Source: an uncultured Clostridia bacterium (GTDB lineage: Bacteria; Bacillota; Clostridia; UMGS1883; UMGS1540). From it: DNA of 64,000 bases. Location of the stretch: the NCBI GenBank assembly GCA_937966555.1, contig CALCLY010000036.1, positions 122,116 through 186,115 of the forward strand, given 5' to 3'. The position numbers and the translations under genes are program-made. Positions 13,592-49,176 of this stretch are shown here, piece after piece (position 1 is the first letter of the stretch; each line of letters begins with the position of its first letter). The notes beneath the pieces are model-generated. The model was not told where the DNA came from, did no database searches, and was given only the letters and a program-made list of their open reading frames with translations.

Positions 13592-14017
13592 ATGAAACTT
13601 GCAATTGAAGAAGCGCGGATTGCCATGTGCGGGGGAGAGGTTCCTGTAGGCGCGGTGGTTACGAAAAACGGCGTTGTTGTGGCAAAAGCGCATAATTTGG
13701 TTGAAAAGCTTCATGATTCCACCGCACATGCAGAGATTCTTGCCATACGCAAGGCGGGAGAGGCATTGGGCAATTGGAGACTTACTGAATGCAGTTTGTA
13801 TGTCACGCTTGAGCCTTGTGCGATGTGTGCAGCGGCACTGTTGCGCGCCCGAATCGCTGCCCTTTATTTCGGCTCTTTTGACAGTGAGTTCGGAGCAGTG
13901 GAAAGCAACAGGCTGATTGTTAATCCGCGTTTGTCTGTGTATTGCGGCATAGAAGAGGATGAATGCAATAAAATCATCAGATGTTTTTTTGATAAAAAAC
14001 GTTTGAAATGCGAATAA
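13592..14017 (+). CDS. tadA: tRNA adenosine(34) deaminase
   Basis: CDA motifs HAEILAI and PCAMCAAAL. The start MKLAIEEARIA is more likely than the longer tool ORF from 13544. Confidence 0.85.
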   Translation: MKLAIEEARIAMCGGEVPVGAVVTKNGVVVAKAHNLVEKLHDSTAHAEILAIRKAGEALGNWRLTECSLYVTLEPCAMCAAALLRARIAALYFGSFDSEFGAVESNRLIVNPRLSVYCGIEEDECNKIIRCFFDKKRLKCE

Positions 14018-18082: not shown

Positions 18083-18085
18083 AGG

Positions 18086-21795: not shown

Positions 21796-21820
21796 TGTAA
21801 ATTTCTCCTTTATTTATAGT

Positions 21821-28664: not shown

Positions 28665-28692
28665 ATTTATATCCTCCTTTTGATGTGATGTT

Positions 28693-29274
28693 CTACTTGC
28701 CTCCGATATTCCGGCTTGAAATTGCATTACCGCAATACTCGCATTTGCCGGAGCTTCCGGCGCGAATTCTTGTTGTTCCGCTGCATTTTTCACACACAAT
28801 GTTAACAAAGCTTGTTTTACTGCCTTCTCTGCCCGAAAGAATCACGCAGGGCATGCCCTGCTTTTGCAGAGTGCAGTCACAGAATACTCCTTTGCCGAAA
28901 AGCTTCTCAAGCTCGGAAAGTACCTTGAACGGCGGTTTCCCCGATTGCTTTGCAAGCTCGTCAATTGTCACCATGCCGTCAGCATCACACATAAAGATTG
29001 AGTTGTAGCGATATGCAAGACCTGCCCTTCTGCCGTTTTTAATCCCGTTTAACAAAAGCAATCCGGACGGAACAACCATGACTATATTGGTAATCAAGTT
29101 ATCGCGAAGCTCTTCGTTATACCCGGTAACCCCGGAAATAATTCCAAACAGAAAAACCGCCGTGAAGAATCCGCCTATAATCATTTGTATGTGCTTTTTT
29201 AATGTAAGCCTTGCAATTGCCACTTTTGAAATATATGTTCCGCCACCCGAAAAGATTGTTTGATTCGTCTTCAT
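28693..29274 (-). CDS. membrane protein with C-terminal zinc ribbon (CEKCSG...CEYCGN)
   Basis: 193 aa from the ATG at 29274 (GGAGG 8 nt upstream). TM segment followed by CxxC...CxxC. Confidence 0.5.
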   Translation of the reverse strand: MKTNQTIFSGGGTYISKVAIARLTLKKHIQMIIGGFFTAVFLFGIISGVTGYNEELRDNLITNIVMVVPSGLLLLNGIKNGRRAGLAYRYNSIFMCDADGMVTIDELAKQSGKPPFKVLSELEKLFGKGVFCDCTLQKQGMPCVILSGREGSKTSFVNIVCEKCSGTTRIRAGSSGKCEYCGNAISSRNIGGK

Positions 29275-35320: not shown

Positions 35321-36100
35321 TTAATAGCTTCCGCCCCTGCCGCCGTGGGTTTCGCCCGACGACGATGTGTGGGTTCCGGAATTGTTTTTTTGTTTTTCCG
35401 TTTTTGTGACCGTACTGTAAAGAAATATATCCCTTGAATCATGCATATTCATGCTTCCGGGCTTCATGTAATCGGACGCATAATCCTGTTTTACGGCTGT
35501 TTTCATTTTTTCCAGCTGCTTTTTCGTCATGTAATACGCCAGAAGCAGCGGAAGGAGCAGCGCTCCGCCGATTACGCAAAGAAGGTAGCCTAAGGTATAC
35601 TGTTTTTCGTTAAAGATATTGCCGCTGCTTGCCATGCCCAGAAGCTTTTCCGATTGTTCGAAAAACGCCTCTGCCGCGGCATCGAAGTTATCCTCCTTGA
35701 GAAAGGGCAAAACTTGTTTTTCCATATACGCCAAGCCGTTTTTATTAAAATATTTGATACCCTTGCCGTGTGTTGAGAAATGATACGCTCTCGGCATTTC
35801 GGAAATGTAAAGAATAATACCGTCTTTTTCCGCGCCGCAGCCGTAGCCGCCGTAGTCGAAAATATCGTCTGCGCGGCTTTCCGCATCATCGCCCGACATG
35901 TATTCCTCCGTGTATATCGCTACGTCAAAATTGTATTTGCTTCTTATTGCGTCGGCTTTTTTCGAGAGCTTGTCAAATTCGCTTTCCGACAAAAGCTCCG
36001 CCTCGTCCGTAATCGACGGATTTGCAAAATCCGCAAGGGCTCCGAAAGCCGACGTAAGCAAAAGAATAGCCGCCAAAAACGATAAAAGTATTTTTTTCAT
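35321..36100 (-). CDS. TPM-domain protein (YdjH-like), signal peptide and C-terminal TM
   Basis: ATG at 36100 with GAGGAGG RBS. Signal peptide MKKILLSFLAAILLLTSAFGALA. TPM-like core (ITDEAELLSESEFDKLSKKADAIRSKYNFDVAIYT). Confidence 0.6.
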   Translation of the reverse strand: MKKILLSFLAAILLLTSAFGALADFANPSITDEAELLSESEFDKLSKKADAIRSKYNFDVAIYTEEYMSGDDAESRADDIFDYGGYGCGAEKDGIILYISEMPRAYHFSTHGKGIKYFNKNGLAYMEKQVLPFLKEDNFDAAAEAFFEQSEKLLGMASSGNIFNEKQYTLGYLLCVIGGALLLPLLLAYYMTKKQLEKMKTAVKQDYASDYMKPGSMNMHDSRDIFLYSTVTKTEKQKNNSGTHTSSSGETHGGRGGSY

Positions 36101-36113
36101 GCCTGCCGCCTCC

Positions 36114-37193
36114 TCAGTGTAACAGGAAATATGCAATTACCGCCGCAGCAACGTACGCGATGCCTGCAATTTTCGCAAAATATATGTTTTTCTTCTTTTT
36201 GTCAACGGGGTATTCTCCCACCACCTTGCCCGTCTGCCCGTTTATGGCGAATTTGTACATTGTATTCATGTACTTGATGTTGAGCATCCACACCGGAAGC
36301 AGCGAATATCTGATTTTACCGCCTGAAAAGCTTATTCTCGTGCTTTCGGGAATTACCGCCGCATAGCCGCCCGTGGTTTCACGAAATACCGAAACCGTCG
36401 ATGCCTTGACGCGCTCGTTTGCTCTTTCTATGCTATCCTCCGCCGTAACGTCGTATTTGTCCGCCAGATATCCCGAAAGATACGCTCCGTTAAAAACGAC
36501 GGCGTCCTCGTAATTGAAGGGCTCGACAGCCTCCATATATGCGTTGTCCGCCTTTTTCGAGCCGTCAACGGGGATATTGGCAAAGCCGACGCTGCCGCTT
36601 CTGAAAAGTCTGTAATAATCGGTTTTTGTATAATTGTAGCTCGAATCGCTCCAGCTTGTAACCCTCTGCGCGCTGTATGTAATCGCCGCGTTGCAGTCGC
36701 AGTCAAACATCCAGAACGGTACGTAAACACCTGCCATTTCTTCTATTTTCTTTTTTACCTTAAATTCGTCCGGCAGAAACGGCGCATTTTTAAAATCATC
36801 TTCAAACGCCGCCGTTGCCGCTTTTTTATCCTTTTTGAACGGAATGATGTAATCGGGGCGGAGCGTTCCCTCAAACTGTCCCTTGATTACCGCGGCGTCG
36901 CCGCAATAAGGGCATACGGTAGAGCCCATGGTGTCATCGCCCGTTATTTCAGCGCCGCATGAAGGGCAGGTGTAGCTTGCAAGATCAATTTCTCCGTCCG
37001 CTTCATAATTTCTCGGCTCGTAGCTCTCCCAGTCATATTTTGATTCACCCTGCATTTCGGCGTTCGCATCGTCGATTTGCCGCATAGCGTCAAGCTCAAA
37101 ATTGTTTCCGCAGGAATCGCAGTGCAGCGATTCGTTTTTGAAAACCAGCGCAGCTCCGCAGCAGGGACATTTATAGCTTTGTACAGTTTCCAT
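36114..37193 (-). CDS. double zinc-ribbon protein with C-terminal TM anchor (YdjG-like)
   Basis: CPCCGA...CDSCGN and CPSCGA...CPYCGD, then a globular domain, then IAGIAYVAAAVIAYFLL TM. Confidence 0.5.
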   Translation of the reverse strand: METVQSYKCPCCGAALVFKNESLHCDSCGNNFELDAMRQIDDANAEMQGESKYDWESYEPRNYEADGEIDLASYTCPSCGAEITGDDTMGSTVCPYCGDAAVIKGQFEGTLRPDYIIPFKKDKKAATAAFEDDFKNAPFLPDEFKVKKKIEEMAGVYVPFWMFDCDCNAAITYSAQRVTSWSDSSYNYTKTDYYRLFRSGSVGFANIPVDGSKKADNAYMEAVEPFNYEDAVVFNGAYLSGYLADKYDVTAEDSIERANERVKASTVSVFRETTGGYAAVIPESTRISFSGGKIRYSLLPVWMLNIKYMNTMYKFAINGQTGKVVGEYPVDKKKKNIYFAKIAGIAYVAAAVIAYFLLH

Positions 37194-37712: not shown

Positions 37713-40700
37713 TTATTCCACCGTTACGACATCGCAGAGCGGCTGCATACCTTGGCTTTCGTGTCCCCAGAGCATAAGCTTGTAAACGTATCCGTCGCCG
37801 GGAGTGCCTTTTAAATAGTAATCCTCCCGATTAACATATTTTATAAGGTAATTTACAAGATTTCCGTTTGCGTCATACTTGGCGCTGTGAAGCCTTGCGC
37901 TGCTGTCAGGTGCAAAGCCGATTACGGTGTTAAGCTCTTTGTTGTAGCTGATAAAGGCTGCGTCCTCCGGCGCAATCAGCGCATACCATGCGTTCGGCAC
38001 ATCGCCGGGGTCTGACATGACATACGACAAATCGCTGCTGTTTTTTGCTCCTACGACTTTCATGGGAGAATATTCGCTTTGCGTAAACATCTGCGTAAAT
38101 GCCTTAAAGCTTGTGCCGTTGTAATTTCCCCAATAAATTTCCGTTATGCCGTAAGCAAGCATCGTTTTGCCGTCAAACGCGGTTTTGCAGTCCCTCACGC
38201 TCAGCTTTTCGGCAAGATTTTCGATTTTCGTGGCTTTTATGCCCTTGTCATACGTCAGCTTGCCCGCACCATTGATTGTGAGTGTTCCGCTGCCGTAAAA
38301 AGAAACCTTGCCTCCGCACAGAATACCCACGGCATCTATAGTGTCCGCTTCGATGATACTGTTTCCCATAAGCTCTATGTCAAGGTCGCCGTTTGCATAA
38401 ATTCCGACAGATTCCGCCGTGGCGTAAATCGGATGCGTATCAATATGCGCATTGTTCAGCGTCAGCTTTGCGGGAGACATTGATGTTTCCGGAGTAAAGC
38501 TTACCGCTCCTCCAAACAGCGCCTCGGCATTGTCCTGCGTGATGCTTTCGCCACCCACCGTTATTATAGGTTCGGCAAATACCGCATAAAGCGAAAGCCC
38601 CATAGGTACGAAAACCTCATCTCCCGGCAGATAATCCACCGTTTTGCCGTTTCTGTCGACAGTCCAGCCCAAAAAGCTGTATCCGTTTTTTATCGGACGA
38701 ACATTGGGCAGAATTACTTTATTATACATTTTCATCCGTATGGTTTTATACGGCTGGCTGCCGGCTTCTCTTTTATCGAACAGGAAGAGAACCGTGCTGC
38801 TCTGCATATCGCTTTTTGTAAACGAATTGACAGCAGACGGCTGATATCCGCACTTGGCGCAGGTTTTGCGATACAGCCCGTCTACGGTGTCGGTTGCTTC
38901 TCTTAAAAGCTCATATTTGTAGATGTGTTCTTCGTCCTTCTTGTACGTCACGGTATTTCCGCTCTCATCCTCGTAGCTGCAGCGGCTGCATATAAGGCTG
39001 TGGTTTGTACCGTCCTTCGGGGTGCACGAATCAAATATATGCCTTACAGAGTGACTGACAAGGTTGCCGTTTACCCCTTTTGTAACTTCTTCGCCGTTTA
39101 CCTTTACAACGCATCTGTATGTTTCGCTTTCCGGCATCCTGTTTGTTATGACAAATCCCGGCGTCTCATAGCCGACAAACATGCCGACGCCTACCCCATA
39201 ATCAACAAGCTGTTTTATGCTGATAAACGCCGAATCCTGTTTAAGCTGCCAGTCATATGTAACCGTTGCCCCCTCGGGCGCGCACACCTTGATGTGGAAT
39301 GCGGCGCTCCTGTCACACTCCGTAACAACCTTGTCTGTAAGGTTTTCGATAAAGGGCGCGGTTTCCGTTCTCCCGATATGCACCGGAAGATATTTGCTCT
39401 CGTCGCCCGACGTCACCGTCAGCGTAAAGCTTTTTTCCTCCGTTGCCGCGGACGGGTAAACGCCGGTGATATAACGATTGCCTGTGATTGAAAGCCCGTA
39501 AGCTGCAAATTCCGCATCGCCCGTCACCGTATAGCTGTCGGCACAGCTTATATAATTTTTCAAATCAACATTGATGGAAGATCCCGAAACACCTGCCGGA
39601 ATTTCGACGGGCTTCAGGTTATATACTTTAAACTCCGAAGCTTCCGCGCAAGTATATTCACGTCCGATGTATATGTCCCTTGAAGGCTTGGAAAGATGAT
39701 TCTCAACGGAGACATCGTTTATATACAGCTTTGTTTCCGCCGTAAACCAGGCGTCACCCGTGGCTTTTTCATAGGCGCCGTATTCGTATACGGTATTTTC
39801 GGTATATTCCTCCAATAAGCTGTATTCGGCTTCTCCCGCAAACAGCGCGTTTTGTGCCTCATTGTCCGAAATAATATTCCCGTCATCGTCTTCATAACTC
39901 TGCATTACGGTATACTCCGATGTTCCGAGAGGATAAAAAACGGGTTTTCTGCCCGGCATCGGCTCGATATTGTAAAGCCGCAGCTCTTTTATTATCGGCT
40001 TCCATTGCGCGTAGATTGTCGTATCCTTATTATATACCCTGCCGAGGTCAACCCGTTCGCCGCCTTCGGGCTCGGTATACCAACCCTCAAGATAAAACCC
40101 TTCTCTGTTGATAACGGTGTGGTCATAATGTAAACTCATAATCGTTCCGTCAATCCCCGTCTGCATCTCAAGCGTTGCGGCGCCGGCAGCGCCCACAAAG
40201 CTGCCGCCGTTTGTGTCAAGCGTTATCGTGTTTGGCTTCGGACTTTTGATTGTGTATTCGAACGTAACGCTCGGTTTGTTCACTCCCACGGTGCTTTTTC
40301 TTATCGCTCTCGGCGGCGCGCCGTCCGTCAGCAGTATCTGAGTATTCCGACTCATGCCGAAGCCTTCCTCAAAATCAAACGTCACCGTCAGCGTGCAGCG
40401 GGTTGTGTTTTTAAAACTCGTTGCATTGACATAGCTTTTTTTAATGGGGTCATATACCTTCCATTTAATCCCCCATATGCTGTAAGGTCTGCCGGCAGAC
40501 ACCTTTACCGCCTGCGTCAGCTCCTCTACCGAGCTGTTTGGCCCGGGCTGCTGCACGCCCATAAGCTCAAGCGAATCCAAATAATTCTTCCTAACTCCTT
40601 CGGTGCACAGATTTTTTGTTTTTATATACAGATACCCGGCATAATAGTCTATGTTTTCTTGCGGCACAGGCTCATCGTCAATATAAAACGCGGTACTGCT

Positions 40701-41033
40701 GTTTACCACATAATTTCCGTTTTTGATGATCACTTTAAAACGGTAATAATACTCTGTGCCGCTGTCAAACGGGTCATAATTTGAACTCAGCTTTGCATCG
40801 TCGCAAGCCCTGTACCACTTTCCCTCATCAATCTTTAATATCTCGTCGGAACCGGGACAGGTTAATTTAACAGGCGCTGCTTTGACGCCTTTCTTAATGC
40901 TTACCTCGCTCATCCCCTCAAACCTCACTTCGGGTATAACGGTTTGAGCCGCAAGCGTTGTCTGCGGCAAAACGCCCAAAAGCACTGCCGCGCAAAGAAC
41001 AGCCGAAAAAAGCCTGCCCTTTTTTATTTTCAT
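37713..41033 (-). CDS. large secreted protein (~1106 aa) with Listeria-Bacteroides-type repeats and His/Cys motifs shared with the upstream Cys-rich giant
   Basis: ATG at 41033 (AAGGAG RBS). Signal peptide MKIKKGRLFSAVLCAAVLLGVLPQTTLAAQT. GW-type repeats (EGFYLEGWYTEP, NGYSFLGWTVD). H..C..C motifs (TNHSLICSRC, CAKCGY). Confidence 0.6.
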   Translation of the reverse strand: MKIKKGRLFSAVLCAAVLLGVLPQTTLAAQTVIPEVRFEGMSEVSIKKGVKAAPVKLTCPGSDEILKIDEGKWYRACDDAKLSSNYDPFDSGTEYYYRFKVIIKNGNYVVNSSTAFYIDDEPVPQENIDYYAGYLYIKTKNLCTEGVRKNYLDSLELMGVQQPGPNSSVEELTQAVKVSAGRPYSIWGIKWKVYDPIKKSYVNATSFKNTTRCTLTVTFDFEEGFGMSRNTQILLTDGAPPRAIRKSTVGVNKPSVTFEYTIKSPKPNTITLDTNGGSFVGAAGAATLEMQTGIDGTIMSLHYDHTVINREGFYLEGWYTEPEGGERVDLGRVYNKDTTIYAQWKPIIKELRLYNIEPMPGRKPVFYPLGTSEYTVMQSYEDDDGNIISDNEAQNALFAGEAEYSLLEEYTENTVYEYGAYEKATGDAWFTAETKLYINDVSVENHLSKPSRDIYIGREYTCAEASEFKVYNLKPVEIPAGVSGSSINVDLKNYISCADSYTVTGDAEFAAYGLSITGNRYITGVYPSAATEEKSFTLTVTSGDESKYLPVHIGRTETAPFIENLTDKVVTECDRSAAFHIKVCAPEGATVTYDWQLKQDSAFISIKQLVDYGVGVGMFVGYETPGFVITNRMPESETYRCVVKVNGEEVTKGVNGNLVSHSVRHIFDSCTPKDGTNHSLICSRCSYEDESGNTVTYKKDEEHIYKYELLREATDTVDGLYRKTCAKCGYQPSAVNSFTKSDMQSSTVLFLFDKREAGSQPYKTIRMKMYNKVILPNVRPIKNGYSFLGWTVDRNGKTVDYLPGDEVFVPMGLSLYAVFAEPIITVGGESITQDNAEALFGGAVSFTPETSMSPAKLTLNNAHIDTHPIYATAESVGIYANGDLDIELMGNSIIEADTIDAVGILCGGKVSFYGSGTLTINGAGKLTYDKGIKATKIENLAEKLSVRDCKTAFDGKTMLAYGITEIYWGNYNGTSFKAFTQMFTQSEYSPMKVVGAKNSSDLSYVMSDPGDVPNAWYALIAPEDAAFISYNKELNTVIGFAPDSSARLHSAKYDANGNLVNYLIKYVNREDYYLKGTPGDGYVYKLMLWGHESQGMQPLCDVVTVE

Positions 41034-41154
41034 ACAATTCAGCTCCTTTTTTCTTTCGGCGCGCGGCAGCTGCCGCGCTCCTACTGCTTTTTTTATGATT
41101 GTTTCTCCGTCGGCCGGGCCGCAAAATGCCGTAAGCCCGACTTGCATATTGGTT

Positions 41155-44100
41155 TTATGAGCCTGTTATTTTCAGTCTTGCCGAAGGCAAAAGAGGTTTT
41201 ATGTTCTTGTCATAGTTAAACATAAACGCTCTTATCTCATCCGCATCCGAAATATTCAGCTCAAGGGTGCCGACGGAAGCGTCGAGTACCGGCATATCCA
41301 TTTGGCGGATAAATTCTCTTTTTATGTCAATCATCCGTCCGTTTTTGTAGCTTGCTATCCAAATATAGGCAGAGAGTCCGCCGTTGGAAGCGTGGATGCA
41401 ATACTCACCGTTTTTCTCGAACAGCTGCAAGACAGGTTTTTCGGTAAGCTTCGGAAGCGTTACATCCTCTTCGTAAAGGCATACGGAGCAGACATGATGG
41501 CCGATTCCTTCCTCGGTCAAAGTCGGTTTTTTGGGAAATACCATCTGATTGTAGCGGTGAGGAATCACGCGGAGCTTTTCGGAGCAGTCCGGACTCTCGC
41601 ATTCCAGCCAGTGACTTGTTTCGTCGTGCTCATATGAACTGTTGACAAAGGAACAGACATGCGTCAACGCTGCTATCGGCGCGGTTTGTTCGTTCCAGCA
41701 GCCGGCTTGCGAGCAGATGCGTTTCTTAAGGCCCGGCGCAGCTGCTGTCGGTGCCGTAACGGTCACCCAGTCGCTGTATGTATGGCGAACATAGGAGTTG
41801 TCGGAACGTCCGCAAGCTTCGTCGGAGCAAGTATTCCAGTGCGCAATGTTGTCATGCGCCACCACGGTGAAGCTGTGCGTATGCGGTGCGGAAAGCTTGG
41901 GAATGCTCTGCTTCTGCCTTGTTAAGCCGCAGTCGGCACAGTAATAGGTCTGCTCGCCCTCGGCGTCAACCGTAGGCTCCTTGGTGGTTTTCCAATAACC
42001 CGGTGTGTGCGACTGCAAATAAAATTCTTCGTAACAGTTTTTGCACAGTACCATATGTCTGTCTGTCCGACTGCCTGTATATGCCACACTATTTCTGTAC
42101 TCATAAGACGAGGTGTCATGCTGAGGAATAATGCGAATCGGATTGGACTGCGCCGTGCCGCCGTCGCCGGTAACAACGCAGACAAACATGAATTCATCCT
42201 CATATCGCAAAACCTCGCCGCACATGGCGTCATACAGCCCAACGGTCAGCGTATCGGTTTTTGTGCCCGCATGACCGTTTTCGGGGTGTTCCTCTATGTC
42301 GGGAACTTTATACAACTTAACATCTCCGTTGGCATCGTAATAAGCGTTGTACCACTGATAAGTAAGATTGTTGCCGCGCGCCTTGACCGAAAGCTTTACG
42401 AAGTTGTCGTCGCGTCCGTGTCTGTAGGTCGGCTTTATTTCGGCAGGCGACTGCCATGTGATGCGCACGGGGCGGATCCTTCCGCAGGCAACGCAGGAGT
42501 CGCCGTGGCGCCAGTCGTGTGCGCCGATATTCACGCGCTTGCCGCCGTCGGGGCAATCAGAATTGGAGCAGATCTTCCAATGCTGCGTTTCGTTCATCTG
42601 CCACTCATCCGTTTCGTGCGGCAGGTTGATAAAGAACCGCACGTCGCTGTTGTAGTATGCCTCATAATTTCCAAGCTCGTTATGTGCGCGCAGGATAAAT
42701 TCGTATCTGCCGCACTGACCGTACAAGTGCTTGAACAGACGTTGGCACTGCGGCTCCTGTAAATCCAAAATAACGCTGTCTTTGGTATAGGTTACCAGCT
42801 GCTGGGCATACATATTCCAAAACGGCGTGCTCTGCTGCGGATTTATCTTCATCCCCGTTTCGGGGTCGATAATCGACATCTTTACATTTTCGCCGCATAG
42901 CAGCGTATATGGAATTACCAGTTTTTCACCGAATATCGCCGTAAATTCGTCCGCAGCGTAATATTTTTCTTTGCCGTTGACATATGTAACGTAGTCCCAT
43001 TCAAGATCTTTGCCGCCGACCGTATCAATTGCCGGCGCGGCAATTTTCTTATAATAACAGTTCAAAGCGCCGCAGGCATAGGGGTTCTTCGAGAAATCGT
43101 GCGTTGTTTTTGTGCTGGCTTTTACATCGCCGCAAAGGCTGCATTGCCTCCAGTGATGCGTTGCGTTATACGCCAGCACTTCACTGCCTTCGCACGTTCC
43201 GTTTACGCAGGCGGACGAAACACTGCTTGTTTTTCTCAAAAAGTATCCGCAGTCAAGGCAGTTGGAATGTATGATTGCAATAGGTTTTCCGAAAACTTCG
43301 GAAAAGTTTTCACGAACCCATTCTCCGAATCTGTGTCTGTTTTGGTTCATCGCCATACCGCAAATGGTACAGGTCTGATAATGTCTGTTGACGTCCCCCT
43401 GTACATAGGTGCTTCCCGGCGTATGCGTATGTGCGCCGTGGGAGCATTTCGAGAAGCAGGTTCCGTGCGATGTGCAATAGTGGTCGACCCATTTCGGGTC
43501 GCTCGGACATATGTCGTTTCCGCAGGAGCAGGGCGTTGCCGCCTTGCAGCAGACAAGGCACTTGCCGCAGTATTGGCACATCTCGCCGGGCGCAAAGCAC
43601 TTATTGCACGTTTTGCAGAAATGCTTGCTCCAGCCCGAGGAGCCCGGGCAAACGTGTGTATGCGTGCATTGCTCCTCCTCGCGCATCTGATTGCAGCAGC
43701 CGGCACAGCCGCCGCAGATGTTACACAAAACCTCTACACAGCCGCCGTGTTCCTCGCAGTAATGGCTTCTCCATTCGCTTCCTTCTATACATATGCCGTG
43801 TTCGCAGCCCAGAAAATCTGCGTTGCTTAAACAGCAATTCAGACAGTAGCCGCAGTCAGGGCAAAACTCATTATCCTCAAAACAGTTGCCGCAGTTGCCG
43901 CAGCGGTGGGTATCCGCGTCCCACTCCGTGCTTTCAACGCATATGCCGTGGTCGCAGCCATTCCTCTGACTTTCGTTAAGGCAGCACTCTGCGCAAAGGC
44001 TGCAGTCATCACACATCTCATCTTCTTCAAAGCAGTTTTCGCAGGATTGGCAGCGGTGAGAATAATCGTCCCAGTCGCTGCTTTCCACGCATATATCGTG

Positions 44101-45129
44101 GTAGCAGCCGTTTTCTTCGCTGGTTCTGCGGCAGCATTCCTCGCATTTTTCGCATTCGTAGCAGAAATTTTCGCACGAGCTGCAGTAATCTCCGCAATCA
44201 GAGCAAAGTATGTAGCCTTCGTAGTTACACTGATTACAGTTTTCACAAATCCACTCCCAGCACTTGTCGCAGTGATCCCCGTCCTCGCAGCGTCTGCCAT
44301 ATTCTTCGGGGCAAGCGCCGCAGTTGGGGCAAATATCGCTCGGCTCCCAGTCGCAGCAAAAGCCGCAGCTGCCGCAGCTTTGGCAGATTCTGTCGTCTTT
44401 TTCGGCGCAATTTTCGCACATTTCGCAGGTATCGTGGTATTCATATGCACAGCTGTTACATTCCGTACAGTGATCATCCAGCCAGCAATCCCTACACCTA
44501 TCGCATTCCCGGCAGATGACGCCGTCCGTAACACAGTTGTTGCACTTTTCGCAACCTTTACAGAAATCGTCCTCCGATTTACATTGGTTGCAGGCTGACA
44601 AACAATCCTGGCAAACGATTTCCAGACAGCAGCCGAGAGTTGCGCGGCAGGTCTTGCACATATCCTCCTCCTCAAACCCTCCGCTCCCGTAAAGGCAGGT
44701 CAGACACTCGTCGCAGTACGGGCACATGGCGCCGTTCGTCCGGCGGCAGTCTTCGCATACATTACAGCCGCTGCAAATGTCTCTGCCGCATTCTCCGCAA
44801 TACCTGCAGTGGTCGTTTTCGCCGCATTCGATACAATTCCAGCATTCGGTGCAGTATTGGTTTTCGCTCAAATCGTTAAAGCATGCGCCGCAGCTGTGGC
44901 AATGAGTGATTTCAAAACAGTCGCTTCTGCAGTCCTCCGTACAGCGGCCGCAGTTTCCGCAGCAATAGCTGTCCCAATGATAGTGACCGCAGCTTCCGCA
45001 GTTCTGACCGTCGGAATAGTCTGCAAATGCCGTAAAGCTGAAAATGGCTGCTAAAAGGACAACGGCAAAAAGAATAACGGCAAAAAGAACAACGGCATGT
45101 TTCACATGATTTCTTTTCATAATCTTCAT
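41155..45129 (-). CDS. giant secreted cysteine-rich protein (~1324 aa): signal peptide, ~500-aa tandem CxxCxxC(xxC) array, then repeated HxWxxCxxxxC modules
   Basis: ATG at 45127-45129 (GAGAGG upstream). Signal peptide KRNHVKHAVVLFAVILFAVVLLAAIFSFTAFA|DYSDG. The N-terminal half is saturated with CxxCxxCxxC units (CTECWNCIEC, CPYCDECLTC, CKGCEKCNNC, CRECDRCRDC...) and ~50-aa repeats (NGCYHDICVESSDW..HRCQSCENC...). Later motifs include HHWRQCSLCG, HWKICSNSDC, AHWNTCSDEAC and SHWLECESPDC. Confidence 0.6.
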   Translation of the reverse strand: MKIMKRNHVKHAVVLFAVILFAVVLLAAIFSFTAFADYSDGQNCGSCGHYHWDSYCCGNCGRCTEDCRSDCFEITHCHSCGACFNDLSENQYCTECWNCIECGENDHCRYCGECGRDICSGCNVCEDCRRTNGAMCPYCDECLTCLYGSGGFEEEDMCKTCRATLGCCLEIVCQDCLSACNQCKSEDDFCKGCEKCNNCVTDGVICRECDRCRDCWLDDHCTECNSCAYEYHDTCEMCENCAEKDDRICQSCGSCGFCCDWEPSDICPNCGACPEEYGRRCEDGDHCDKCWEWICENCNQCNYEGYILCSDCGDYCSSCENFCYECEKCEECCRRTSEENGCYHDICVESSDWDDYSHRCQSCENCFEEDEMCDDCSLCAECCLNESQRNGCDHGICVESTEWDADTHRCGNCGNCFEDNEFCPDCGYCLNCCLSNADFLGCEHGICIEGSEWRSHYCEEHGGCVEVLCNICGGCAGCCNQMREEEQCTHTHVCPGSSGWSKHFCKTCNKCFAPGEMCQYCGKCLVCCKAATPCSCGNDICPSDPKWVDHYCTSHGTCFSKCSHGAHTHTPGSTYVQGDVNRHYQTCTICGMAMNQNRHRFGEWVRENFSEVFGKPIAIIHSNCLDCGYFLRKTSSVSSACVNGTCEGSEVLAYNATHHWRQCSLCGDVKASTKTTHDFSKNPYACGALNCYYKKIAAPAIDTVGGKDLEWDYVTYVNGKEKYYAADEFTAIFGEKLVIPYTLLCGENVKMSIIDPETGMKINPQQSTPFWNMYAQQLVTYTKDSVILDLQEPQCQRLFKHLYGQCGRYEFILRAHNELGNYEAYYNSDVRFFINLPHETDEWQMNETQHWKICSNSDCPDGGKRVNIGAHDWRHGDSCVACGRIRPVRITWQSPAEIKPTYRHGRDDNFVKLSVKARGNNLTYQWYNAYYDANGDVKLYKVPDIEEHPENGHAGTKTDTLTVGLYDAMCGEVLRYEDEFMFVCVVTGDGGTAQSNPIRIIPQHDTSSYEYRNSVAYTGSRTDRHMVLCKNCYEEFYLQSHTPGYWKTTKEPTVDAEGEQTYYCADCGLTRQKQSIPKLSAPHTHSFTVVAHDNIAHWNTCSDEACGRSDNSYVRHTYSDWVTVTAPTAAAPGLKKRICSQAGCWNEQTAPIAALTHVCSFVNSSYEHDETSHWLECESPDCSEKLRVIPHRYNQMVFPKKPTLTEEGIGHHVCSVCLYEEDVTLPKLTEKPVLQLFEKNGEYCIHASNGGLSAYIWIASYKNGRMIDIKREFIRQMDMPVLDASVGTLELNISDADEIRAFMFNYDKNIKPLLPSARLKITGS

Positions 45130-45131: not shown

Positions 45132-45419
45132 TCAAATCGCCTCTCTTTCATGAATTTGCTTTGCTCCGCACATGGGGCAATACTCCGCATCATTAGGGAG
45201 AACATTTTCACATTTGGTGCAGCAACGATGCTTTGCTCTGTAAATATCAAAAACTGTTTCCTCCGGCAGTTTTGTCTGACAAACTTTGCAAAACTTGTTT
45301 TTTGCAGCCTGCGCATTTCCGCAGCACGGGCAGATTTTAAACCTTTTCATATTTTGGGTGCCAAAACCGAAATGCTCCAAAACATCTTTTCTTAACGGTC
45401 TATATCTCGTCACTCTCAT
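45132..45419 (-). CDS. double zinc-ribbon protein (~95-107 aa)
   Basis: CPCCGN...CKVCQ and CTKCEN...CPMCGA. The start is probably the ATG at 45419 (GGAGGAG 5 nt upstream). The stop lies 2 nt from the start of the giant gene. Confidence 0.45.
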   Translation of the reverse strand: MRVTRYRPLRKDVLEHFGFGTQNMKRFKICPCCGNAQAAKNKFCKVCQTKLPEETVFDIYRAKHRCCTKCENVLPNDAEYCPMCGAKQIHEREAI

Positions 45420-45783
45420 CAGCTCCTCCATATAATAGTTTTTTGCCGCATACAAAGCAAATTATATCTCCGTTTTTTGCTTTTGCGCCGCAGTGCTTGC
45501 AATACTTTGCTTCTTCCTCAAGAGGAGCACAATTCACGCACATAAGCATATCCGGATTATATACAATCGAATCAACCCATCTGCCGCACAAGTGGCATAA
45601 ATTAAAATTTTTCTTGCCCTCCGCTTCCCATGCCGCCGAAAGCTCTGCCTCGAAATCGTCTGCATAATACTTTCCTGTGGTACAGACAAGCTTTCCCGAC
45701 AATTCACAGAAAAAGCTGTAACGGTTTCCGCCATGTGACGGAATAATTTTGTATGCAGCCGTTTTATGCTTCTCATTTATCAT
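45400..45783 (-). CDS. zinc-ribbon protein (~127 aa from Met at 45783; longer TTG-initiated ORF to 45873 possible)
   Basis: CHLCGRW...CVNCAP and CKHCGA...CFVCGK. The RBS GAGGAGG lies 8 nt upstream of ATG 45783. Confidence 0.45.
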   Translation of the reverse strand: MINEKHKTAAYKIIPSHGGNRYSFFCELSGKLVCTTGKYYADDFEAELSAAWEAEGKKNFNLCHLCGRWVDSIVYNPDMLMCVNCAPLEEEAKYCKHCGAKAKNGDIICFVCGKKLLYGGADESDEI

Positions 45784-46087
45784 ACGCCTCGCCTCCTCTC
45801 TGAAAAACTTATAAACCCGTTTCTTTTGCACAAACCTACGCAAATTATCCGCAAGCCGTTGACTAATTGCCAAAAATGTGATATACTTGTGATGGATAAA
45901 TCTGCTAAAAAGGAACCCGTCTTTTTATTTAAGAAACTGCGATTACTTTATAATAGGTTGAAACACATACGTAAAAGAACGCCTCTTTATCTTTTTTTTG
46001 CAGATAATTCTTTCCGGTGCTGCAAATTGTTGTTTTTACATGTTTTCATTATACATAAAAATATCTTTTTGTCCCCATACTTTTTGC

Positions 46088-46235: not shown

Positions 46236-47558
46236 ATGCAACCTGTAAAAAAAATTTTTTTATTTTTACTCATTTTCAGCATATTGGTATGCTGTCTTTC
46301 CGGCTGCAAAAAATCGGAACTTGATAAAAACAAGCCCGTTACGCTTACAATGTGGCACGTTTACGGAGAACAAGCGGATTCGCCGATGAATCGGCTTATT
46401 GACGAATTTAACGAGACAGTTGGCATGGAAAAAGGCATTATTATCAATGTCACGGCAATGTCCAACGCCTCCAAAATAGGCGAAAAACTGCTTGACGCAC
46501 ATAATAAGATTCCCGGTTCCGCCGAAATGCCCGACCTTTTCTTTGCACACAAAAGCAACGCGCTGGAGCTTGGAACGGATTGTTTACTTGACTGGAACGA
46601 ATATTTTTCCGAAAAAGAGCTTTCGGCATACGTTCCGGGGTTTTTGGAGGACGGCACGGCAGACGGAAATCTGTCCGTGTTCCCGGTTTCCAAATCCACG
46701 CATCTTTTATTCATCGCCGGAGGTCAGTTTGAACGCTTTTCAGCCGATACGGGCGTTACATATGAAGCACTGTCCACATGGGATGGGTTTTTCGATGCTG
46801 CCGCGAAATATTATGACTGGTCGGGCGGAAAACCGTTCTGCGCTCTTGATTATCCGCTGCGCGCCATTGAGCTTGCGGCTACGGAAAGCGGCGCAGGAAA
46901 TATTTTTGCCGACAACGGATTCTATGACCCGTCAAACGTGATTTTTAAGCAAACCTTCATGAAATTTGCGGATTCGCTTGCAAAAGGGCATATTATGCTT
47001 TCAAATCTCTATTCAAACACACAGGTGATGACAGGCGATGTTGTAGCCGGCATAGGCTCGTCCGCCGCAATTCTTTACTATAATGATACCGTGACATATG
47101 AGGACGGAACGAGTGAGCCGATGGAGCTGGAGATACTGCCTCTGCCCGCTGAAAACGGAAAAAAGCCGTATATCACGCAAGCCGGAGTCGGTCTTTGCGC
47201 ATATAAAACATCAAGTCAAAAAGCAGAGGCTGCAGTGATTTTTGCCAAATGGCTCACCGAGCCGGAGAGAAATCTTGAGTTCGTATGCCAAACAGGTTAT
47301 ATGCCCGTTACAAACGGTGCATTTGACAAAATAGACGACTGCCATTTCAAGACAGCCGATTATGAAAAACTTTATGCAGCCCTAAAAAAAATTAAGGAAA
47401 GCTCGGAGGTTTTATCGGAACAGCAAAGTCCCGAATATTACAGCAGAGTTTACGCATTTTACGATTATTTAAGAAACGAACAGAAACAATTTATATTAAG
47501 CAACACGCCGCCCGAAGCACTTGCCAATGGACTTTGGCAAAAGCTCTGCGAAAAATAG
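46236..47558 (+). CDS. ABC-transporter-type extracellular solute-binding lipoprotein (family 1), orphan (no adjacent permease/ATPase)
   Basis: Lipobox LSGC. SBP_bac_1-like sequence (…VTLTMWHVYGEQ…). The next gene is a regulator, not a permease. Confidence 0.75.
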   Translation: MQPVKKIFLFLLIFSILVCCLSGCKKSELDKNKPVTLTMWHVYGEQADSPMNRLIDEFNETVGMEKGIIINVTAMSNASKIGEKLLDAHNKIPGSAEMPDLFFAHKSNALELGTDCLLDWNEYFSEKELSAYVPGFLEDGTADGNLSVFPVSKSTHLLFIAGGQFERFSADTGVTYEALSTWDGFFDAAAKYYDWSGGKPFCALDYPLRAIELAATESGAGNIFADNGFYDPSNVIFKQTFMKFADSLAKGHIMLSNLYSNTQVMTGDVVAGIGSSAAILYYNDTVTYEDGTSEPMELEILPLPAENGKKPYITQAGVGLCAYKTSSQKAEAAVIFAKWLTEPERNLEFVCQTGYMPVTNGAFDKIDDCHFKTADYEKLYAALKKIKESSEVLSEQQSPEYYSRVYAFYDYLRNEQKQFILSNTPPEALANGLWQKLCEK

Positions 47559-47571
47559 ACGGGGGATTATT

Positions 47572-49176
47572 ATGCAAATATCGGTAAGAAACAAAAGACA
47601 ATCTATGCAAAAAAAGCTGTTTGGATATATGTTTATCCTGGCTATCGTTTTATTGCTTATATTTGCGGCTTTTCTTTTCCTGTTCGGACGTTTTTCGACA
47701 ACCGAGGATAAAATATCGGATATATTAAGCCTTCAGATTGAGTTTTTCGACCGTGAAATGACGGCTTACTACAATAATATTACCTTGCGCGGCGCACAGC
47801 TTTCCGAAAAAGCCGCGCAGCTTACCGAGCAATATCTCAATTCGGAAAATACAGATTTTGGCGGCGTTCAAAATTCTTCTTTGCATATCAACGCTCTTGA
47901 GGAACGCTATATTGATTTATTGAAGAACGAGCTTTTAAAGGCAAGCTGTTCCGGCGCTTTTATTCTGATTAACGCATCTCAAACCGGCGAAAGCGGTTCA
48001 AAAGCAGGCGTGTACCTTAATCAGGATCTGTTCGGAACAACGGACAAGGAAACAATGCTTCTTTACAGGGGAAATGTGAAGGCTGCAATAAACAAAGGCA
48101 TTATGCCTCACCGAAAATGGCATTTGGAATTTGACACCGGGGGATTCCCAAATTTTGAAGAAGTTCTTTCGGATACCGCCGAGCCGATTGAAAAAGCCTC
48201 TCACATTTGTAATATTATAATGCTTCCCGGAACGTCGGAGCATGTTATGCTTGTAGCGCTTCCTATCAGAGGCGACGGCGGCCGCGTTTACGGCATCTGC
48301 GGCTTTGAAGTAAACGAAAGCGTTTTTAAGTCCGCACACGCACAGCCGTCCACGCTTCCGCACATAACCTGCATATTCTCCCGCTCGGACGATAAAGAAA
48401 TCAATATCAAAGAGGGATTAAGCTGCGGAGCAAAAAACGGATATTTTCTTGCACCTAAGGATTCCCTCAAAATCAAGCCGCTGAAAAAGGGTCTTGTCGC
48501 TTTAAAAAATGAATACGGCGCATATATTGGCATGACGAGAAACACAACTCTTTATTCCGAAAACACACCTTATTCGATTACGGTTATGATGCCGTATGCG
48601 GATTATTCCGAGCTGGAAACGAAAAACACCATACAGCTTATACTCATAATTCTGATTTTGGGATTTGCTGTTTTAAGCCTTAGCCTGTATTTTTCAAAAC
48701 GATTTATCCTTCCGATAAAAAAATCGCTTGACAAAATAAAGCAATCCGAAAAGACATATTCCGACGAAAGTCAAAGCGGTATTATGGAAATTGACGACCT
48801 TTTTGCATTTCTTGCCGGAAAGGATAACGAATATCAAAAAATCTTCGATGAGCATTCCGAAAAAAACGAGAGTCTGCAAAGCGAGATTGAACGCATCAGA
48901 ACCGAAAACAAGCGTCTGATGAAAGAGCATAAAAATATCATCATACAGGATGATTATGATCATTTCTGTTCTGGTTTACGCAGCCTTACTCCCAAGGAGA
49001 GAACAATATTTGACCTCTATCTGGAGGGAAAAACCGTTCCTGAAATTTTACAGATTGCAAAAGTTAAAGAGAGTACACTTAAATACCATAACGGCAATAT
49101 TTACAGCAAGCTCGGCGTTTCCTCAAAAAAGCAGCTTCTTAATTTTGCGGCACTGTATGCACAGGAAAAAAAATAA
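47572..49176 (+). CDS. membrane-anchored transcriptional regulator: two TM segments flanking an extracytoplasmic sensor domain, coiled coil, C-terminal LuxR/GerE-type HTH
   Basis: ATG at 47572 (GGGGGA RBS). TM LFGYMFILAIVLLLIFAAFLFLF and IQLILIILILGFAVLSLSLYF. C-terminal LTPKERTIFDLYLEGKTVPEILQIAKVKESTLKYHNGNIYSKLGV. Confidence 0.6.
   Translation: MQISVRNKRQSMQKKLFGYMFILAIVLLLIFAAFLFLFGRFSTTEDKISDILSLQIEFFDREMTAYYNNITLRGAQLSEKAAQLTEQYLNSENTDFGGVQNSSLHINALEERYIDLLKNELLKASCSGAFILINASQTGESGSKAGVYLNQDLFGTTDKETMLLYRGNVKAAINKGIMPHRKWHLEFDTGGFPNFEEVLSDTAEPIEKASHICNIIMLPGTSEHVMLVALPIRGDGGRVYGICGFEVNESVFKSAHAQPSTLPHITCIFSRSDDKEINIKEGLSCGAKNGYFLAPKDSLKIKPLKKGLVALKNEYGAYIGMTRNTTLYSENTPYSITVMMPYADYSELETKNTIQLILIILILGFAVLSLSLYFSKRFILPIKKSLDKIKQSEKTYSDESQSGIMEIDDLFAFLAGKDNEYQKIFDEHSEKNESLQSEIERIRTENKRLMKEHKNIIIQDDYDHFCSGLRSLTPKERTIFDLYLEGKTVPEILQIAKVKESTLKYHNGNIYSKLGVSSKKQLLNFAALYAQEKK

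What the first reader, a model, noticed from the sequence alone, without database searches (positions are those of the whole stretch)
41155..45129. Giant secreted protein made of ~80 CxxC-type motifs in tandem arrays, in an anaerobe cell-envelope operon
The 1324-aa product has a cleavable signal peptide (AFA|DYSDG). The N-terminal ~500 aa are almost pure CxxCxxCxxC units and ~50-aa Cys-rich repeats (NGC[YD]H[DG]ICVES[ST][DE]W...HRC.[SN]C.NCFE...C.DC..C..CC). These are followed by globular modules punctuated by H-x-W-x-x-C-x-x-x-x-C motifs. Extracytoplasmic cysteine-dense arrays are very unusual in Clostridia-type anaerobes, which generally avoid exported disulfide proteins. The spacing fits neither 4Fe-4S ferredoxin (CxxCxxCxxxCP) nor ordinary zinc ribbons. 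I recognise no described family. Candidate functions are a metal- or sulfide-binding surface matrix protein, a metallothionein-like sink, or a structural/adhesive protein. The GC-rich, Cys-codon-rich DNA generates many shadow ORFs, which explains the clutter in the six-frame track.
Basis: seen in the sequence. Interest (0 to 1): 0.85.

Follow-up and report, generated by a model that had tools for sequence, protein, structure and literature searches.

The report
Exported array of zinc-finger-like modules
A gut anaerobe exports a 1324-residue surface protein whose outer 530 residues are a chain of tiny cysteine/histidine modules that look built to fold around about 34 metal ions (probably zinc) rather than disulfide bonds; the family matches no curated model, solved structure or paper that I could find.

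Summary
A 1324-aa ORF lies on the minus strand (41155-45129) with a Sec signal peptide (AFA|DYSDG), 149 Cys and 67 overlapping CxxC motifs, not about 80. The identical protein occurs on 6 independent contigs. Intact orthologs are under purifying selection (dN/dS 0.09-0.3) and keep 147-148 of the 149 Cys.

Residues 37-565 hold two unit types. Type A is H-C-x2-C-x2-C-x6-C-x2-C-x2-C-x2-C. Type B is a ~48-aa repeat present 4.5 times.

Across 217 non-redundant type B repeats, Cys+His at ligand positions is exactly 12 in 154. The Cys count alone runs 8-11 with no even/odd preference. One ligand is supplied either by a terminal Cys or by a His of the next repeat (216 of 221 junctions). This fits three tetrahedral metal sites per repeat and argues against disulfides.

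AlphaFold gives an ordered type B region (pLDDT 83). There is no Pfam, NCBIfam or PDB match, and the weak hits are nearly all zinc fingers.

About 100 clusters among 1.84 billion representatives share the repeat. Scanned relatives carry cell-surface attachment modules (SLH, dockerin, LPXTG, CWB2), C-terminal wherever positions were seen.

Best reading: an exported, metal-stapled, very acidic module array. The metal and the physiological role are inferred, not shown.

The parts
41155..45129 (-). Whole gene: 1324-aa exported Cys/His-rich protein (stop codon at 41155-41157)
   Evidence: ORF and translation. The exact protein is on 6 contigs. Orthologs at 77-88% identity occur in 8 loci from species-representative genomes (two loci are halves of the same gene in one assembly). 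dN/dS is 0.09-0.3.
45022..45129 (-). Signal peptide, aa 1-36, with cleavage predicted at AFA|DY
   Evidence: Basic n-region, 22-residue hydrophobic core and an AxA site. The junction is conserved in homologs whose h-regions differ. None of 122 family N-termini has a twin-arginine motif.
44125..45021 (-). Type A array, aa 37-335: 71 Cys and 8 His in units of the form H-C-x2-C-x2-C-x6-C-x2-C-x2-C-x2-C
   Evidence: Segmentation. The family consensus shows the same unit. 33 invariant columns, 32 of them Cys, across 13 homologs. The AlphaFold model has pLDDT 70, rising to 80-88 for model residues 20-110 and 200-250.
43435..44124 (-). Type B repeats, aa 336-565: 4.5 copies of G-C-x-H-x2-C-x-E-S-x-D-W-x2-H-x-C-x2-C-G-x-C-F-E-x3-x-C-x2-C-G-x-C-x2-C-C
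   Evidence: HMM iteration. Ligand columns and junction covariation. AlphaFold pLDDT 83.3 and pTM 0.58.
41158..43434 (-). C-terminal 759 aa. It holds single H-W-x2-C-x(2,4)-C...H knuckles (aa 658, 850, 1097, 1173), CxxC...CxxC ribbon-like beads, an Ig-like segment (aa ~885-1003, with the YQWY...FVCVVTG motif) and a ~100-aa terminal domain with no recognised anchor.
   Evidence: Motif positions. The same order of elements appears in the 28-protein family consensus. No Pfam hit reaches threshold.
45134..45349 (-). Small 71-aa double zinc-ribbon ORF. It has no signal peptide and its stop lies 4 nt before the giant's ATG.
   Evidence: Sequence. Pfam DZR scores 35.7 bits against a cutoff of 27.3. 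Conserved upstream of the giant in L001, L020, L024 and many metagenome loci.
45400..45873 (-). 157-aa zinc-ribbon protein, a conserved upstream neighbour within the query's lineage
   Evidence: Weak DZR/Zn_ribbon_3 hits. Synteny.
37713..41147 (-). 1144-aa secreted Flg_new-repeat protein, 7 nt downstream. It occupies a variable slot.
   Evidence: Pfam Flg_new. Absent from L001 and replaced by other DNA in L003 and L005. No similarity to the giant.
35321..37193 (-). A 359-aa protein (N-terminal zinc ribbons, C-terminal membrane helix) and a 271-aa TPM-domain protein
   Evidence: Pfam. The pair is also adjacent to the giant homologs P0004 and P0017 (46% and 32% identity).
46236..49176 (+). Divergently transcribed SBP_bac_8 lipoprotein (440 aa, lipobox LSGC) and a 551-aa membrane-bound LuxR/GerE-type regulator (two TM helices around a ~330-aa outside domain)
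   Evidence: Pfam. Sequence features. Found beside giant homologs of two lineages at 25-40% identity.

Best explanation
The gene encodes a Sec-exported protein of about 140 kDa. The first ~530 residues of the mature protein form a chain of very small Cys/His modules with almost no hydrophobic core. Each module is folded around tetrahedrally coordinated metal ions, most likely Zn2+ acquired after export.

I count about 20 sites in the type A units (8 ligands per ~27 aa) and about 14 in the 4.5 type B repeats (12 ligands per ~48 aa). One ligand of each type B repeat bridges to the next repeat. Behind the array comes a stalk of beta-rich (Ig-like) segments separated by single His/Cys knuckles and zinc-ribbon-like beads.

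Scanned relatives carry Gram-positive cell-surface attachment modules of several kinds, C-terminal wherever positions were seen, so there the array points away from the cell.

The proposed mechanism is a metal-stapled, strongly acidic (net -67) outer extension of the cell surface. It would stay folded in a reducing, protease-rich gut lumen where disulfides cannot be maintained. A neighbouring membrane LuxR-type regulator with a binding-protein lipoprotein probably switches it on.

Shown here: the ORF, the export signal, the repeat anatomy, family-wide ligand conservation, the Cys<->His exchanges and the ordered predicted structure. Inferred: the identity of the metal, loading outside the cell, and the shield or brush role.
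For: 1. Ligand arithmetic. In 217 non-redundant type B repeats, Cys+His at ligand positions is 12 in 154 and 11 in 40. Cys alone is 8-11, with 115 odd and 102 even counts.

2. Cys<->His exchange at fixed columns. Column 6 has H 132 and C 74. Column 23 has C 265, H 7 and D 8.

3. The twelfth ligand is either a terminal Cys (160 junctions) or a His just before the next repeat's first Cys (56). Only 3 junctions have neither and 2 have both (Fisher 4e-46).

4. The whole array has 116 C + 21 H = 137, or 34.25 x 4. Only 60 of 529 residues are I, L, V, M or F.

5. AlphaFold is confident without any hydrophobic core: pLDDT 83.3 for type B and 70 for type A.

6. Every weak structural or profile hit that has any pattern is a zinc domain: ZnF arrays, RBR, RING, LIM, PHD, FYVE-type, the RanBP2 ZnF of RBM10 and the DHHC Cys-rich domain.

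7. All signal peptides are Sec-type, with no Tat motif in 122 N-termini. No Dsb, thioredoxin or radical-SAM gene lies in the window.

8. Purifying selection acts throughout, and 147-148 of 149 Cys are kept at about 85% overall identity.

9. Surface location. The family's C-terminal anchors include SLH (6 of 28 scanned members), dockerin (5), CWB2, LPXTG, choline-binding repeats and a TM helix.
Against: No metal was measured, and AlphaFold does not model ions. I could not read model coordinates to check Cys geometry.

The repeats are phylogenetically related, so the Fisher p-value overstates independence. The two junction types could be two linker subtypes that differ for reasons unrelated to metal binding.

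Zn(Cys)4 sites are anionic, and the array is already very acidic (net -67). That is unusual for structural zinc sites.

The query itself has no recognised cell-wall anchor, so its orientation and retention are inferred from relatives.

A purely protective or spacer role does not explain why the array sits at the distal tip with nothing beyond it.
Confidence: 0.55

Rival explanations
1. High-capacity metal sink. The array is an exchangeable, metallothionein-like store or trap at the cell surface. It would either hoard zinc against host nutritional immunity or capture toxic thiophilic metals (Cu+, Cd2+, Hg2+) and sulfide-reactive species.
For: The evidence for metal ligands is the same as above. 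There are about 34 sites per molecule with an acidic surround. One distant homolog (P0008) lies divergently next to a ZnuA/ABC-3/ABC_tran metal-uptake operon.
Against: ZnuA adjacency was seen in 1 of about 25 sampled lineages. Fixed ligand columns, ordered AlphaFold models and conserved non-ligand residues (dN/dS 0.09-0.27) look like structural sites. CxC and clustered-thiolate patterns typical of metallothioneins are absent (one CxC), and no metallothionein Pfam family matches.
Confidence: 0.2
2. Ligand-binding head. The distal array is an adhesin or decoy that binds a host or dietary partner, for example cationic antimicrobial peptides, mucin or plant-fibre components. The metal sites would serve only as scaffolding.
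For: The array is N-terminal while the identified attachment modules of relatives are C-terminal where positions were seen. Non-ligand residues are under purifying selection. The net charge is -67. Neighbours are regulators with extracellular sensing parts. Partner domains in relatives are typical of adhesins (LRR_5, Flg_new, Big_2, CBM_X2).
Against: No recognisable binding domain or pocket is present. Repeat number varies widely between relatives, from about 300 to 800 aa of array, which is more typical of spacers or coats than of a specific receptor site. No partner is known.
Confidence: 0.15
3. Disulfide-stapled extracellular repeat, as in EGF-like or furin-like repeats or as often assumed for Giardia VSPs. 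The cysteines would pair with each other rather than bind metal.
For: The protein is extracellular and Cys-rich with regular spacing, which is the usual signature of disulfide-rich domains.
Against: The Cys count per repeat has no even preference (115 odd, 102 even), while Cys+His is constant at 12. Cys<->His swaps occur at fixed positions and across the repeat junction. The host is a strict anaerobe of the reducing gut lumen, and no Dsb-like gene lies in the window. There are no fold hits to disulfide-rich domains apart from isolated chance-level ones (wheat germ agglutinin, LRP2) among mostly zinc domains.
Confidence: 0.1
4. Iron-sulfur array. The CxxCxxC(xxC) runs would bind closely spaced Fe-S clusters, forming an extracellular redox chain.
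For: There are 32 overlapping CxxCxxC and 11 CxxCxxCxxC motifs. The middle Cys of one triad is occasionally replaced by Asp or His, which I recall from some ferredoxins (my own knowledge). Ferredoxins appear in the profile search at E about 8.
Against: The ferredoxin CxxCxxCxxxCP motif occurs 0 times. No Fer4 Pfam hit appears even at E<=10. There are no ferredoxin fold hits. Export is by Sec, not Tat (0 of 122 N-termini), so clusters would have to assemble outside the cell. Three clusters per 48 residues would be denser than the two clusters per ~55 residues of clostridial-type ferredoxins (my own knowledge). Two conserved His per repeat fit zinc better.
Confidence: 0.04

Closest known systems
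Giardia lamblia variant-specific surface proteins (VSPs) and high-cysteine membrane proteins
   Same: Both have a signal peptide and a long extracellular region rich in CxxC, about 11-12% Cys overall. Some relatives of the query share the C-terminal membrane anchor. Both belong to anaerobic gut-lumen organisms. Zinc binding by VSPs is reported in the literature (PMC2996952, citing Nash and Mowatt 1993).
   Different: There is no sequence relationship: no Pfam hit of any kind, so no VSP-family match, and no CRGKA tail, GGCY or CxxCHxxCxxC motifs. CxxC density here is 17 per kb overall and far higher in the array, against a mean of 12.6 per kb in VSPs (PMC2996952). The query is a single conserved gene under purifying selection, not a large switching repertoire. 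It is bacterial.
Tandem eukaryotic zinc-finger and cross-brace zinc domains (C2H2 arrays, RING/RBR, LIM, PHD, RanBP2-type zinc ribbons)
   Same: Both are small modules without a hydrophobic core, held by 4 Cys/His ligands and strung in tandem. The centre of the type B repeat (W-x2-H-x-C-x2-C-G...C-x2-C-G) aligns weakly with the RanBP2-type finger of RBM10 (E 0.04). These are the only kinds of fold recovered, all at insignificant scores.
Bacterial zinc-ribbon domains (Pfam DZR, Zn_ribbon families), as in the flanking genes
   Same: CxxC...CxxC knuckle pairs. The C-terminal beads of the giant have this look.
   Different: The giant matches none of these models even at E<=10. The flanking zinc-ribbon proteins lack signal peptides and are cytoplasmic or membrane-anchored.
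Large modular cell-surface proteins of Clostridia (SLH-, dockerin- or sortase-anchored, with Flg_new, Big_2 and LRR_5 modules)
   Same: Relatives have the same overall build of signal peptide, modular stalk and a C-terminal anchor. The window's neighbouring genes are of this kind.
   Different: None of the curated modules accounts for the N-terminal 530 residues, and the query has no recognised anchor.

Membership tests
4Fe-4S ferredoxin-type domains (Pfam Fer4 clan) | CxxCxxCxxxCP cluster-binding motif | tested here: not met
   0 occurrences of C..C..C...CP. The 7 CxxCxxCxxxC strings are all by-products of CxxCxxCxxCC runs or irregular spacing.
4Fe-4S ferredoxin-type domains (Pfam Fer4 clan) | Profile match or ferredoxin fold | tested here: not met
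4Fe-4S ferredoxin-type domains (Pfam Fer4 clan) | Tat export, as expected for an extracytoplasmic cofactor-loaded protein | tested here: not met
   None of 122 family N-termini has a twin-arginine motif.
Giardia VSP / HCMP | Pfam VSP profile; conserved C-terminal TM segment plus CRGKA tail; GGCY and CxxCHxxCxxC motifs | tested here: not met
   No Pfam hit. CRGKA 0, GGCY 0, CxxCHxxCxxC 0.
Metallothioneins | Short proteins with CxC, CC and CxxC clusters that form bridged thiolate clusters, with few or no His or aromatic residues | tested here: not met
   One CxC only. There are conserved His and Trp in each repeat. No Pfam hit. The predicted structure is ordered and modular.
Curated zinc-ribbon and zinc-finger families (DZR, Zn_ribbon_*, zf-RanBP, DnaJ CxxCxGxG, LIM, RING) | Profile match above the family threshold | tested here: not met
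   0 families for the whole protein at E<=0.01 and for the array at E<=10. The DnaJ motif occurs 0 times. The best PDB profile hit is a RanBP2 finger at E 0.04.
Zinc-stapled Cys/His mini-domains (functional class, not a homology family) | A constant set of four-ligand groups in which Cys and His are interchangeable | tested here: met
   12 Cys+His in 154 of 217 repeats. H/C is mixed at column 6. The junction ligand is Cys or His in 216 of 221 junctions.
Zinc-stapled Cys/His mini-domains (functional class, not a homology family) | Bound Zn2+ at the expected stoichiometry, with folding dependent on it | not testable with these tools
   This needs ICP-MS, a PAR assay or EXAFS on purified protein.
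Anchored cell-surface (cell-wall or cellulosome-bound) proteins of Gram-positive bacteria | N-terminal Sec signal peptide | tested here: met
Anchored cell-surface (cell-wall or cellulosome-bound) proteins of Gram-positive bacteria | Recognised anchor (SLH, LPXTG, CWB2, choline-binding, dockerin, TM) | tested here: inconclusive
   The query has none. Relatives have SLH, dockerin, CWB2, LPXTG, choline-binding repeats or a TM helix.

The most novel reading that the evidence does not exclude
The array is a chain of about 34 closely spaced redox-active metal-thiolate or iron-sulfur centres on the outside of a Gram-positive gut anaerobe. It would act as an extracellular electron conduit or as a sacrificial redox buffer against oxygen and host oxidants, a non-haem counterpart of multihaem cytochrome wires.
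Probability: 0.04. Interest if true: 0.95.

Novelty: new variant of a known kind. Interest (0 to 1): 0.66.

Why it matters
Extracellular proteins are normally stabilised by disulfides or by hydrophobic cores. I know of few structural Cys4 or Cys/His zinc sites outside cells, and I found no report of exported arrays of them in bacteria.

If the model is right, strict anaerobes of the human gut have a different solution for building robust surface structures in a reducing, protease-rich lumen. They would staple a core-less chain with dozens of metal ions.

That would define a new domain family with no fold match in the PDB. It would add a large, previously uncounted zinc or thiophilic-metal demand at the cell surface of common Oscillospiraceae, which bears on competition with the host for zinc. 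It would also give a compact, repetitive, metal-dependent scaffold for protein engineering.

The family is small (about 100 clusters at 50% identity), but members of the query's lineage are frequent in human gut metagenomes: the two closest 90% clusters have 197 and 499 members.

Tried and rejected
- A second word-indexed homolog search with alignment A2 returned only 5 fragments and added nothing.
I replaced it with a degenerate DNA pattern for H-x-C-x2-C-G-x-C-x6-C-x2-C-G-x-C-x2-C. Of the 87 loci returned, 28 were not family loci by the HMM screen; the six inspected were low-complexity GCGGC-type sequences or one unrelated Cys-rich ORF.
- Promoter and terminator consensus scans were uninformative.
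- Five literature searches found no description of such bacterial proteins. The one promising preprint used 'cysteine-rich' only for CAP domains.
- Spore-coat or exosporium Cys-rich protein: rejected because of the signal peptide and the wall anchors in relatives.
- RiPP or radical-SAM precursor: rejected because the window holds no maturase gene and the protein is 1324 aa.
- Horizontal acquisition as an explanation for the GC excess: not supported. Neighbouring surface-protein genes are also at 48-49% GC and the synteny is stable.
- A functional link to ZnuABC: seen once only and not in 59 further loci.
- A link to the 1144-aa downstream gene: rejected because that gene is absent or replaced in orthologous loci.

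Full report
**1. The observation**

The ORF is real but lies on the minus strand. It runs 41155..45129, starts at the ATG at 45129 and encodes 1324 aa. A GAGAGG ribosome-binding site lies about 10 nt upstream.

The N-terminus (MKIMKRNHVKH, then a 22-residue hydrophobic stretch, then AFA|DYSDG) has the form of a Sec signal peptide. The cleavage junction is conserved in homologs whose hydrophobic cores differ.

Residues 46-520 are 19-24% Cys. The median for long ORFs in the window is 1.8%.

There is no DNA-level tandem repeat. The identical protein is recorded on 6 contigs, the longest 361 kb, and its 90% cluster has 197 members. Intact full-length orthologs exist in other species-level MAGs. 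The single-ORF model is therefore sound.

Several MAG contigs break inside the gene (L004/L005, L006-L008). One 'complete' MAG (L003) has frameshifts in this gene and in its neighbours. These are assembly problems in those records, not in the window.

**2. Organism and surroundings**

Orthologs at 77-88% identity come from uncultured human-gut Clostridia and Oscillospiraceae MAGs. The window is chromosomal: it carries acetate kinase, phosphotransacetylase, YunB and ThrE. It also has a mobile element at its start and a type I restriction-modification system.

On the minus strand the gene order is as follows:
- a 157-aa zinc-ribbon protein;
- a 71-aa double zinc-ribbon ORF not in the ORF list at its true size, whose stop lies 4 nt before the giant's ATG;
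- the giant;
- a 1144-aa Flg_new protein;
- a 129-aa membrane protein;
- a 359-aa zinc-ribbon/TM protein;
- a TPM-domain protein;
- DUF4428, LRR_5+SLH, SPFH, HEAT and a 1112-aa Flg_new+SLH protein.

A lipoprotein of the SBP_bac_8 type and a 551-aa LuxR/GerE regulator are transcribed divergently. The regulator has two membrane helices around a ~330-aa outside domain.

The 1144-aa gene occupies a variable slot. It is absent in L001 and replaced by other DNA in L003 and L005.

No Dsb or thioredoxin-like gene, radical-SAM gene or metal-transport gene lies in the window.

**3. Anatomy**

Residues 37-335 ('type A') are units of the form H-C-x2-C-x2-C-x6-C-x2-C-x2-C-x2-C. The same unit stands out in the consensus of 28 distant relatives. 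In an alignment of 13 homologs, 33 columns are invariant and 32 of them are Cys.

Residues 336-565 ('type B') are 4.5 copies of a ~48-aa repeat with this consensus:

G-C-x-H-x2-C-x-E-S-x-D-W-x2-H-x-C-x2-C-G-x-C-F-E-x4-C-x2-C-G-x-C-x2-C-C

The remaining 759 residues hold:
- four H-W-x2-C-x(2,4)-C...H knuckles;
- CxxC...CxxC beads of the form T...G.....C..CG.....IP.L..H.H;
- an Ig-like segment (YQWY...FVCVVTG);
- a ~100-aa terminal domain.

None of these reaches a Pfam threshold.

The array has a net charge of -67, and only 60 of its 529 residues are I, L, V, M or F. It cannot have a conventional hydrophobic core.

**4. The family**

A profile of the type B repeat was run against 1.84 billion representative proteins. 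It found 103 clusters at E<=1e-3 and 26 at E<=1e-10. A minority of the hits are false positives that are RanBP2-type finger arrays.

True members are mostly 1100-2900 aa. They have a signal peptide followed by 300-800 aa at 20-29% Cys. Type B repeats always close the array.

Among 28 members scanned, the attachment modules found are SLH (6), dockerin (5), CWB2, LPXTG, choline-binding repeats and Cu_amine_oxidN1, next to Flg_new, Big_2 and LRR_5 modules. Where positions were reported they are C-terminal. Another subfamily ends in a membrane helix. In these relatives the array is the part farthest from the attachment module.

One subfamily (P0010, P0021) sits in Bacteroidota-like gene contexts with a TonB-dependent receptor, TamB, Omp85 and DUF4923. 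The family therefore crosses phyla.

**5. Evidence on how the array is held together**

(a) In 282 unique type B repeats the conserved positions are nine Cys columns, one His column (253 of 282) and one mixed column (H 132, C 74). The second Cys of the first triad is occasionally His (7) or Asp (8).

(b) A twelfth ligand is supplied in one of two mutually exclusive ways. Either a second Cys follows the last one (…C-C; 160 junctions), or a His stands immediately before the first Cys of the next repeat (…x2-4-H-C; 56 junctions). Only 3 junctions have neither and 2 have both. One of the three 'neither' cases has a His exactly where the extra Cys would be.

(c) Counting these positions in 217 non-redundant repeats, Cys+His is 12 in 154 and 11 in 40. 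Cys alone varies from 8 to 11 and is odd in 115 and even in 102. Disulfide-stapled domains should conserve an even number of Cys and should not accept His. Sets of four interchangeable Cys/His ligands are what metal sites look like.

(d) The array as a whole has 137 Cys+His, which is 34.25 x 4.

(e) AlphaFold2 used only 13-15 aligned homologs. It predicts an ordered chain of small hairpins, with one short helix per repeat on the C-x2-C-C segment. pLDDT is 83.3 and pTM 0.58 for type B. pLDDT is 70.3 for type A, with two long stretches at 80-88.

(g) Export is by Sec. None of 122 family N-termini has a twin-arginine motif. A cofactor that must be inserted in the cytoplasm, such as an Fe-S cluster, is therefore unlikely. 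Zn2+ can bind spontaneously after export; this last step is inference.

A tentative site assignment, which is inference only:
- C4/H6/C9/H18;
- C20/C23/C33/C36, a ribbon with RanBP2-like spacing;
- C26/C39/C42 plus C43 or the next repeat's His.

Caveats: the repeats are related by descent, so the statistics overstate independence. I had no access to model coordinates. No metal was measured.

**6. Selection and context**

Against the orthologs L001 and L002, dN/dS is 0.09-0.27 in the two array halves and 0.16-0.54 elsewhere. 147-148 of the 149 Cys are retained at about 85% identity. This is a conserved, functional protein, not a fast-evolving antigen.

Neighbourhood sampling drew on 10 look-ups and on 59 metagenome loci that fall into 20 lineages. 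It shows three patterns:
- The two small zinc-ribbon genes, the 359-aa zinc-ribbon/TM protein and the TPM protein accompany the giant only in the query's lineage and in P0004, P0020 and P0017.
- The membrane LuxR regulator plus binding-protein lipoprotein recurs in a second lineage at 25-40% identity.
- A NarL-type response regulator with the same GerE helix-turn-helix sits next to giants of four further lineages.

Conditional expression under a LuxR-family regulator is thus the most general contextual feature.

One homolog (P0008) is adjacent to a ZnuA-type metal-uptake operon and a sortase. I treat this single case as a lead only.

**7. Explanation**

The best-supported reading is an exported array of about 34 structural, probably zinc-binding, Cys/His sites. 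It would form a rigid, very acidic, disulfide-independent outer extension of a cell-surface protein, suited to a reducing and protease-rich gut lumen.

How the fold is held is reasonably supported. What it is for is not. I rank the roles in this order:
1. A protective or spacer 'brush', in analogy with Giardia VSPs, which are signal-peptide-bearing, CxxC-rich, membrane-anchored coat proteins reported to bind zinc (PMC2996952).
2. A metal store or trap.
3. A binding head.

Disulfide stapling and Fe-S clusters are disfavoured by the tests above but are not excluded experimentally.

**8. Novelty**

No curated profile (Pfam, NCBIfam), solved structure, source annotation or searchable paper describes this module.

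Mechanistically it belongs with zinc-stapled mini-domains. What differs is that it is bacterial, exported, arrayed by the dozen and uses a 12-ligand repeat with an inter-repeat ligand.

I rate it a new variant of a known kind, and an uncharacterised family with a predicted fold that has no match among solved structures.

Noticed in passing
window 45134-45349 (-): A 71-aa double zinc-ribbon ORF (Pfam DZR 35.7 bits) lies immediately upstream of the giant, with its stop 4 nt before the giant's ATG. It is hidden in the ORF list inside a longer TTG-started 107-aa ORF. It is conserved upstream of giant homologs down to about 29% identity (L020, L024).
   Followed up: partly
window 46236-49176 (+): An SBP_bac_8 lipoprotein (lipobox LSGC) is paired with a 551-aa LuxR/GerE regulator that has two TM helices around a ~330-aa extracellular domain. 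The pair looks like a one-component surface sensor. It is conserved beside giant homologs in two lineages, and NarL-type GerE response regulators flank giants of four other lineages.
   Followed up: partly
window 37713-41147 (-): A 1144-aa secreted Flg_new-repeat protein lies 7 nt downstream of the giant in a variable slot. It is absent in L001, and other ~4-kb inserts occupy the slot in L003 and L005.
   Followed up: partly
L016 4604-7357 and 8001-15463 (NCBI GCA_028748505.1): The giant homolog P0008 (2156 aa) is divergent from a ZnuA + ABC_tran + ABC-3 metal-uptake operon and is followed by a sortase. YunB and ThrE lie nearby, as at window 59-63 kb. This is the only metal-transport link seen.
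   Followed up: partly
L018/L019 and L009: The P0010/P0021 subfamily sits among Bacteroidota-type genes (TonB-dependent receptor, TamB, Omp85, DUF4923, DUF5041). After the signal peptide these proteins start with a W-rich motif (WDWEW). The family therefore seems to cross from Clostridia to Bacteroidota.
   Followed up: no
L012 4084-5976: In the membrane-anchored, 27-29% Cys subfamily (P0017), the 361-aa zinc-ribbon/TM protein and the TPM protein sit directly upstream of the giant instead of downstream. The trio is thus kept together despite the rearrangement.
   Followed up: partly
L003 (CP091729.1) 9842-13935 and flanks: This 'complete' MAG shows split alignments and frameshifts in the giant and in at least five neighbouring genes. 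They are probably indel errors of the assembly rather than pseudogenes.
   Followed up: no
window 1-7860 and 15050-23209: A mobile-element remnant (sigma-70-like gene, DUF6076, MobA/VirD2 relaxase, ParB-like gene, large serine recombinase) is followed, after ack-pta, by a type I restriction-modification system and an ATPase_2/DUF234 gene. Both regions have lower GC (33-40%) than the rest of the window.
   Followed up: no
window 26226-27191 (+): A 322-codon open frame with 10.6% Cys runs antisense to the 1112-aa Flg_new+SLH gene (25470-28808, -). It is most likely a shadow frame of a GC-rich gene, as with the shadow ORFs over the giant.
   Followed up: no
L034 1967-2041 and L041 804-878: The DNA pattern scan also picked up an unrelated Cys-rich ORF (…CGDCGTCTDCCHSCRRCGECTSS… repeated) on 79-89 kb metagenome contigs that does not match the type B profile. 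It may be another CxxC-repeat protein type.
   Followed up: no
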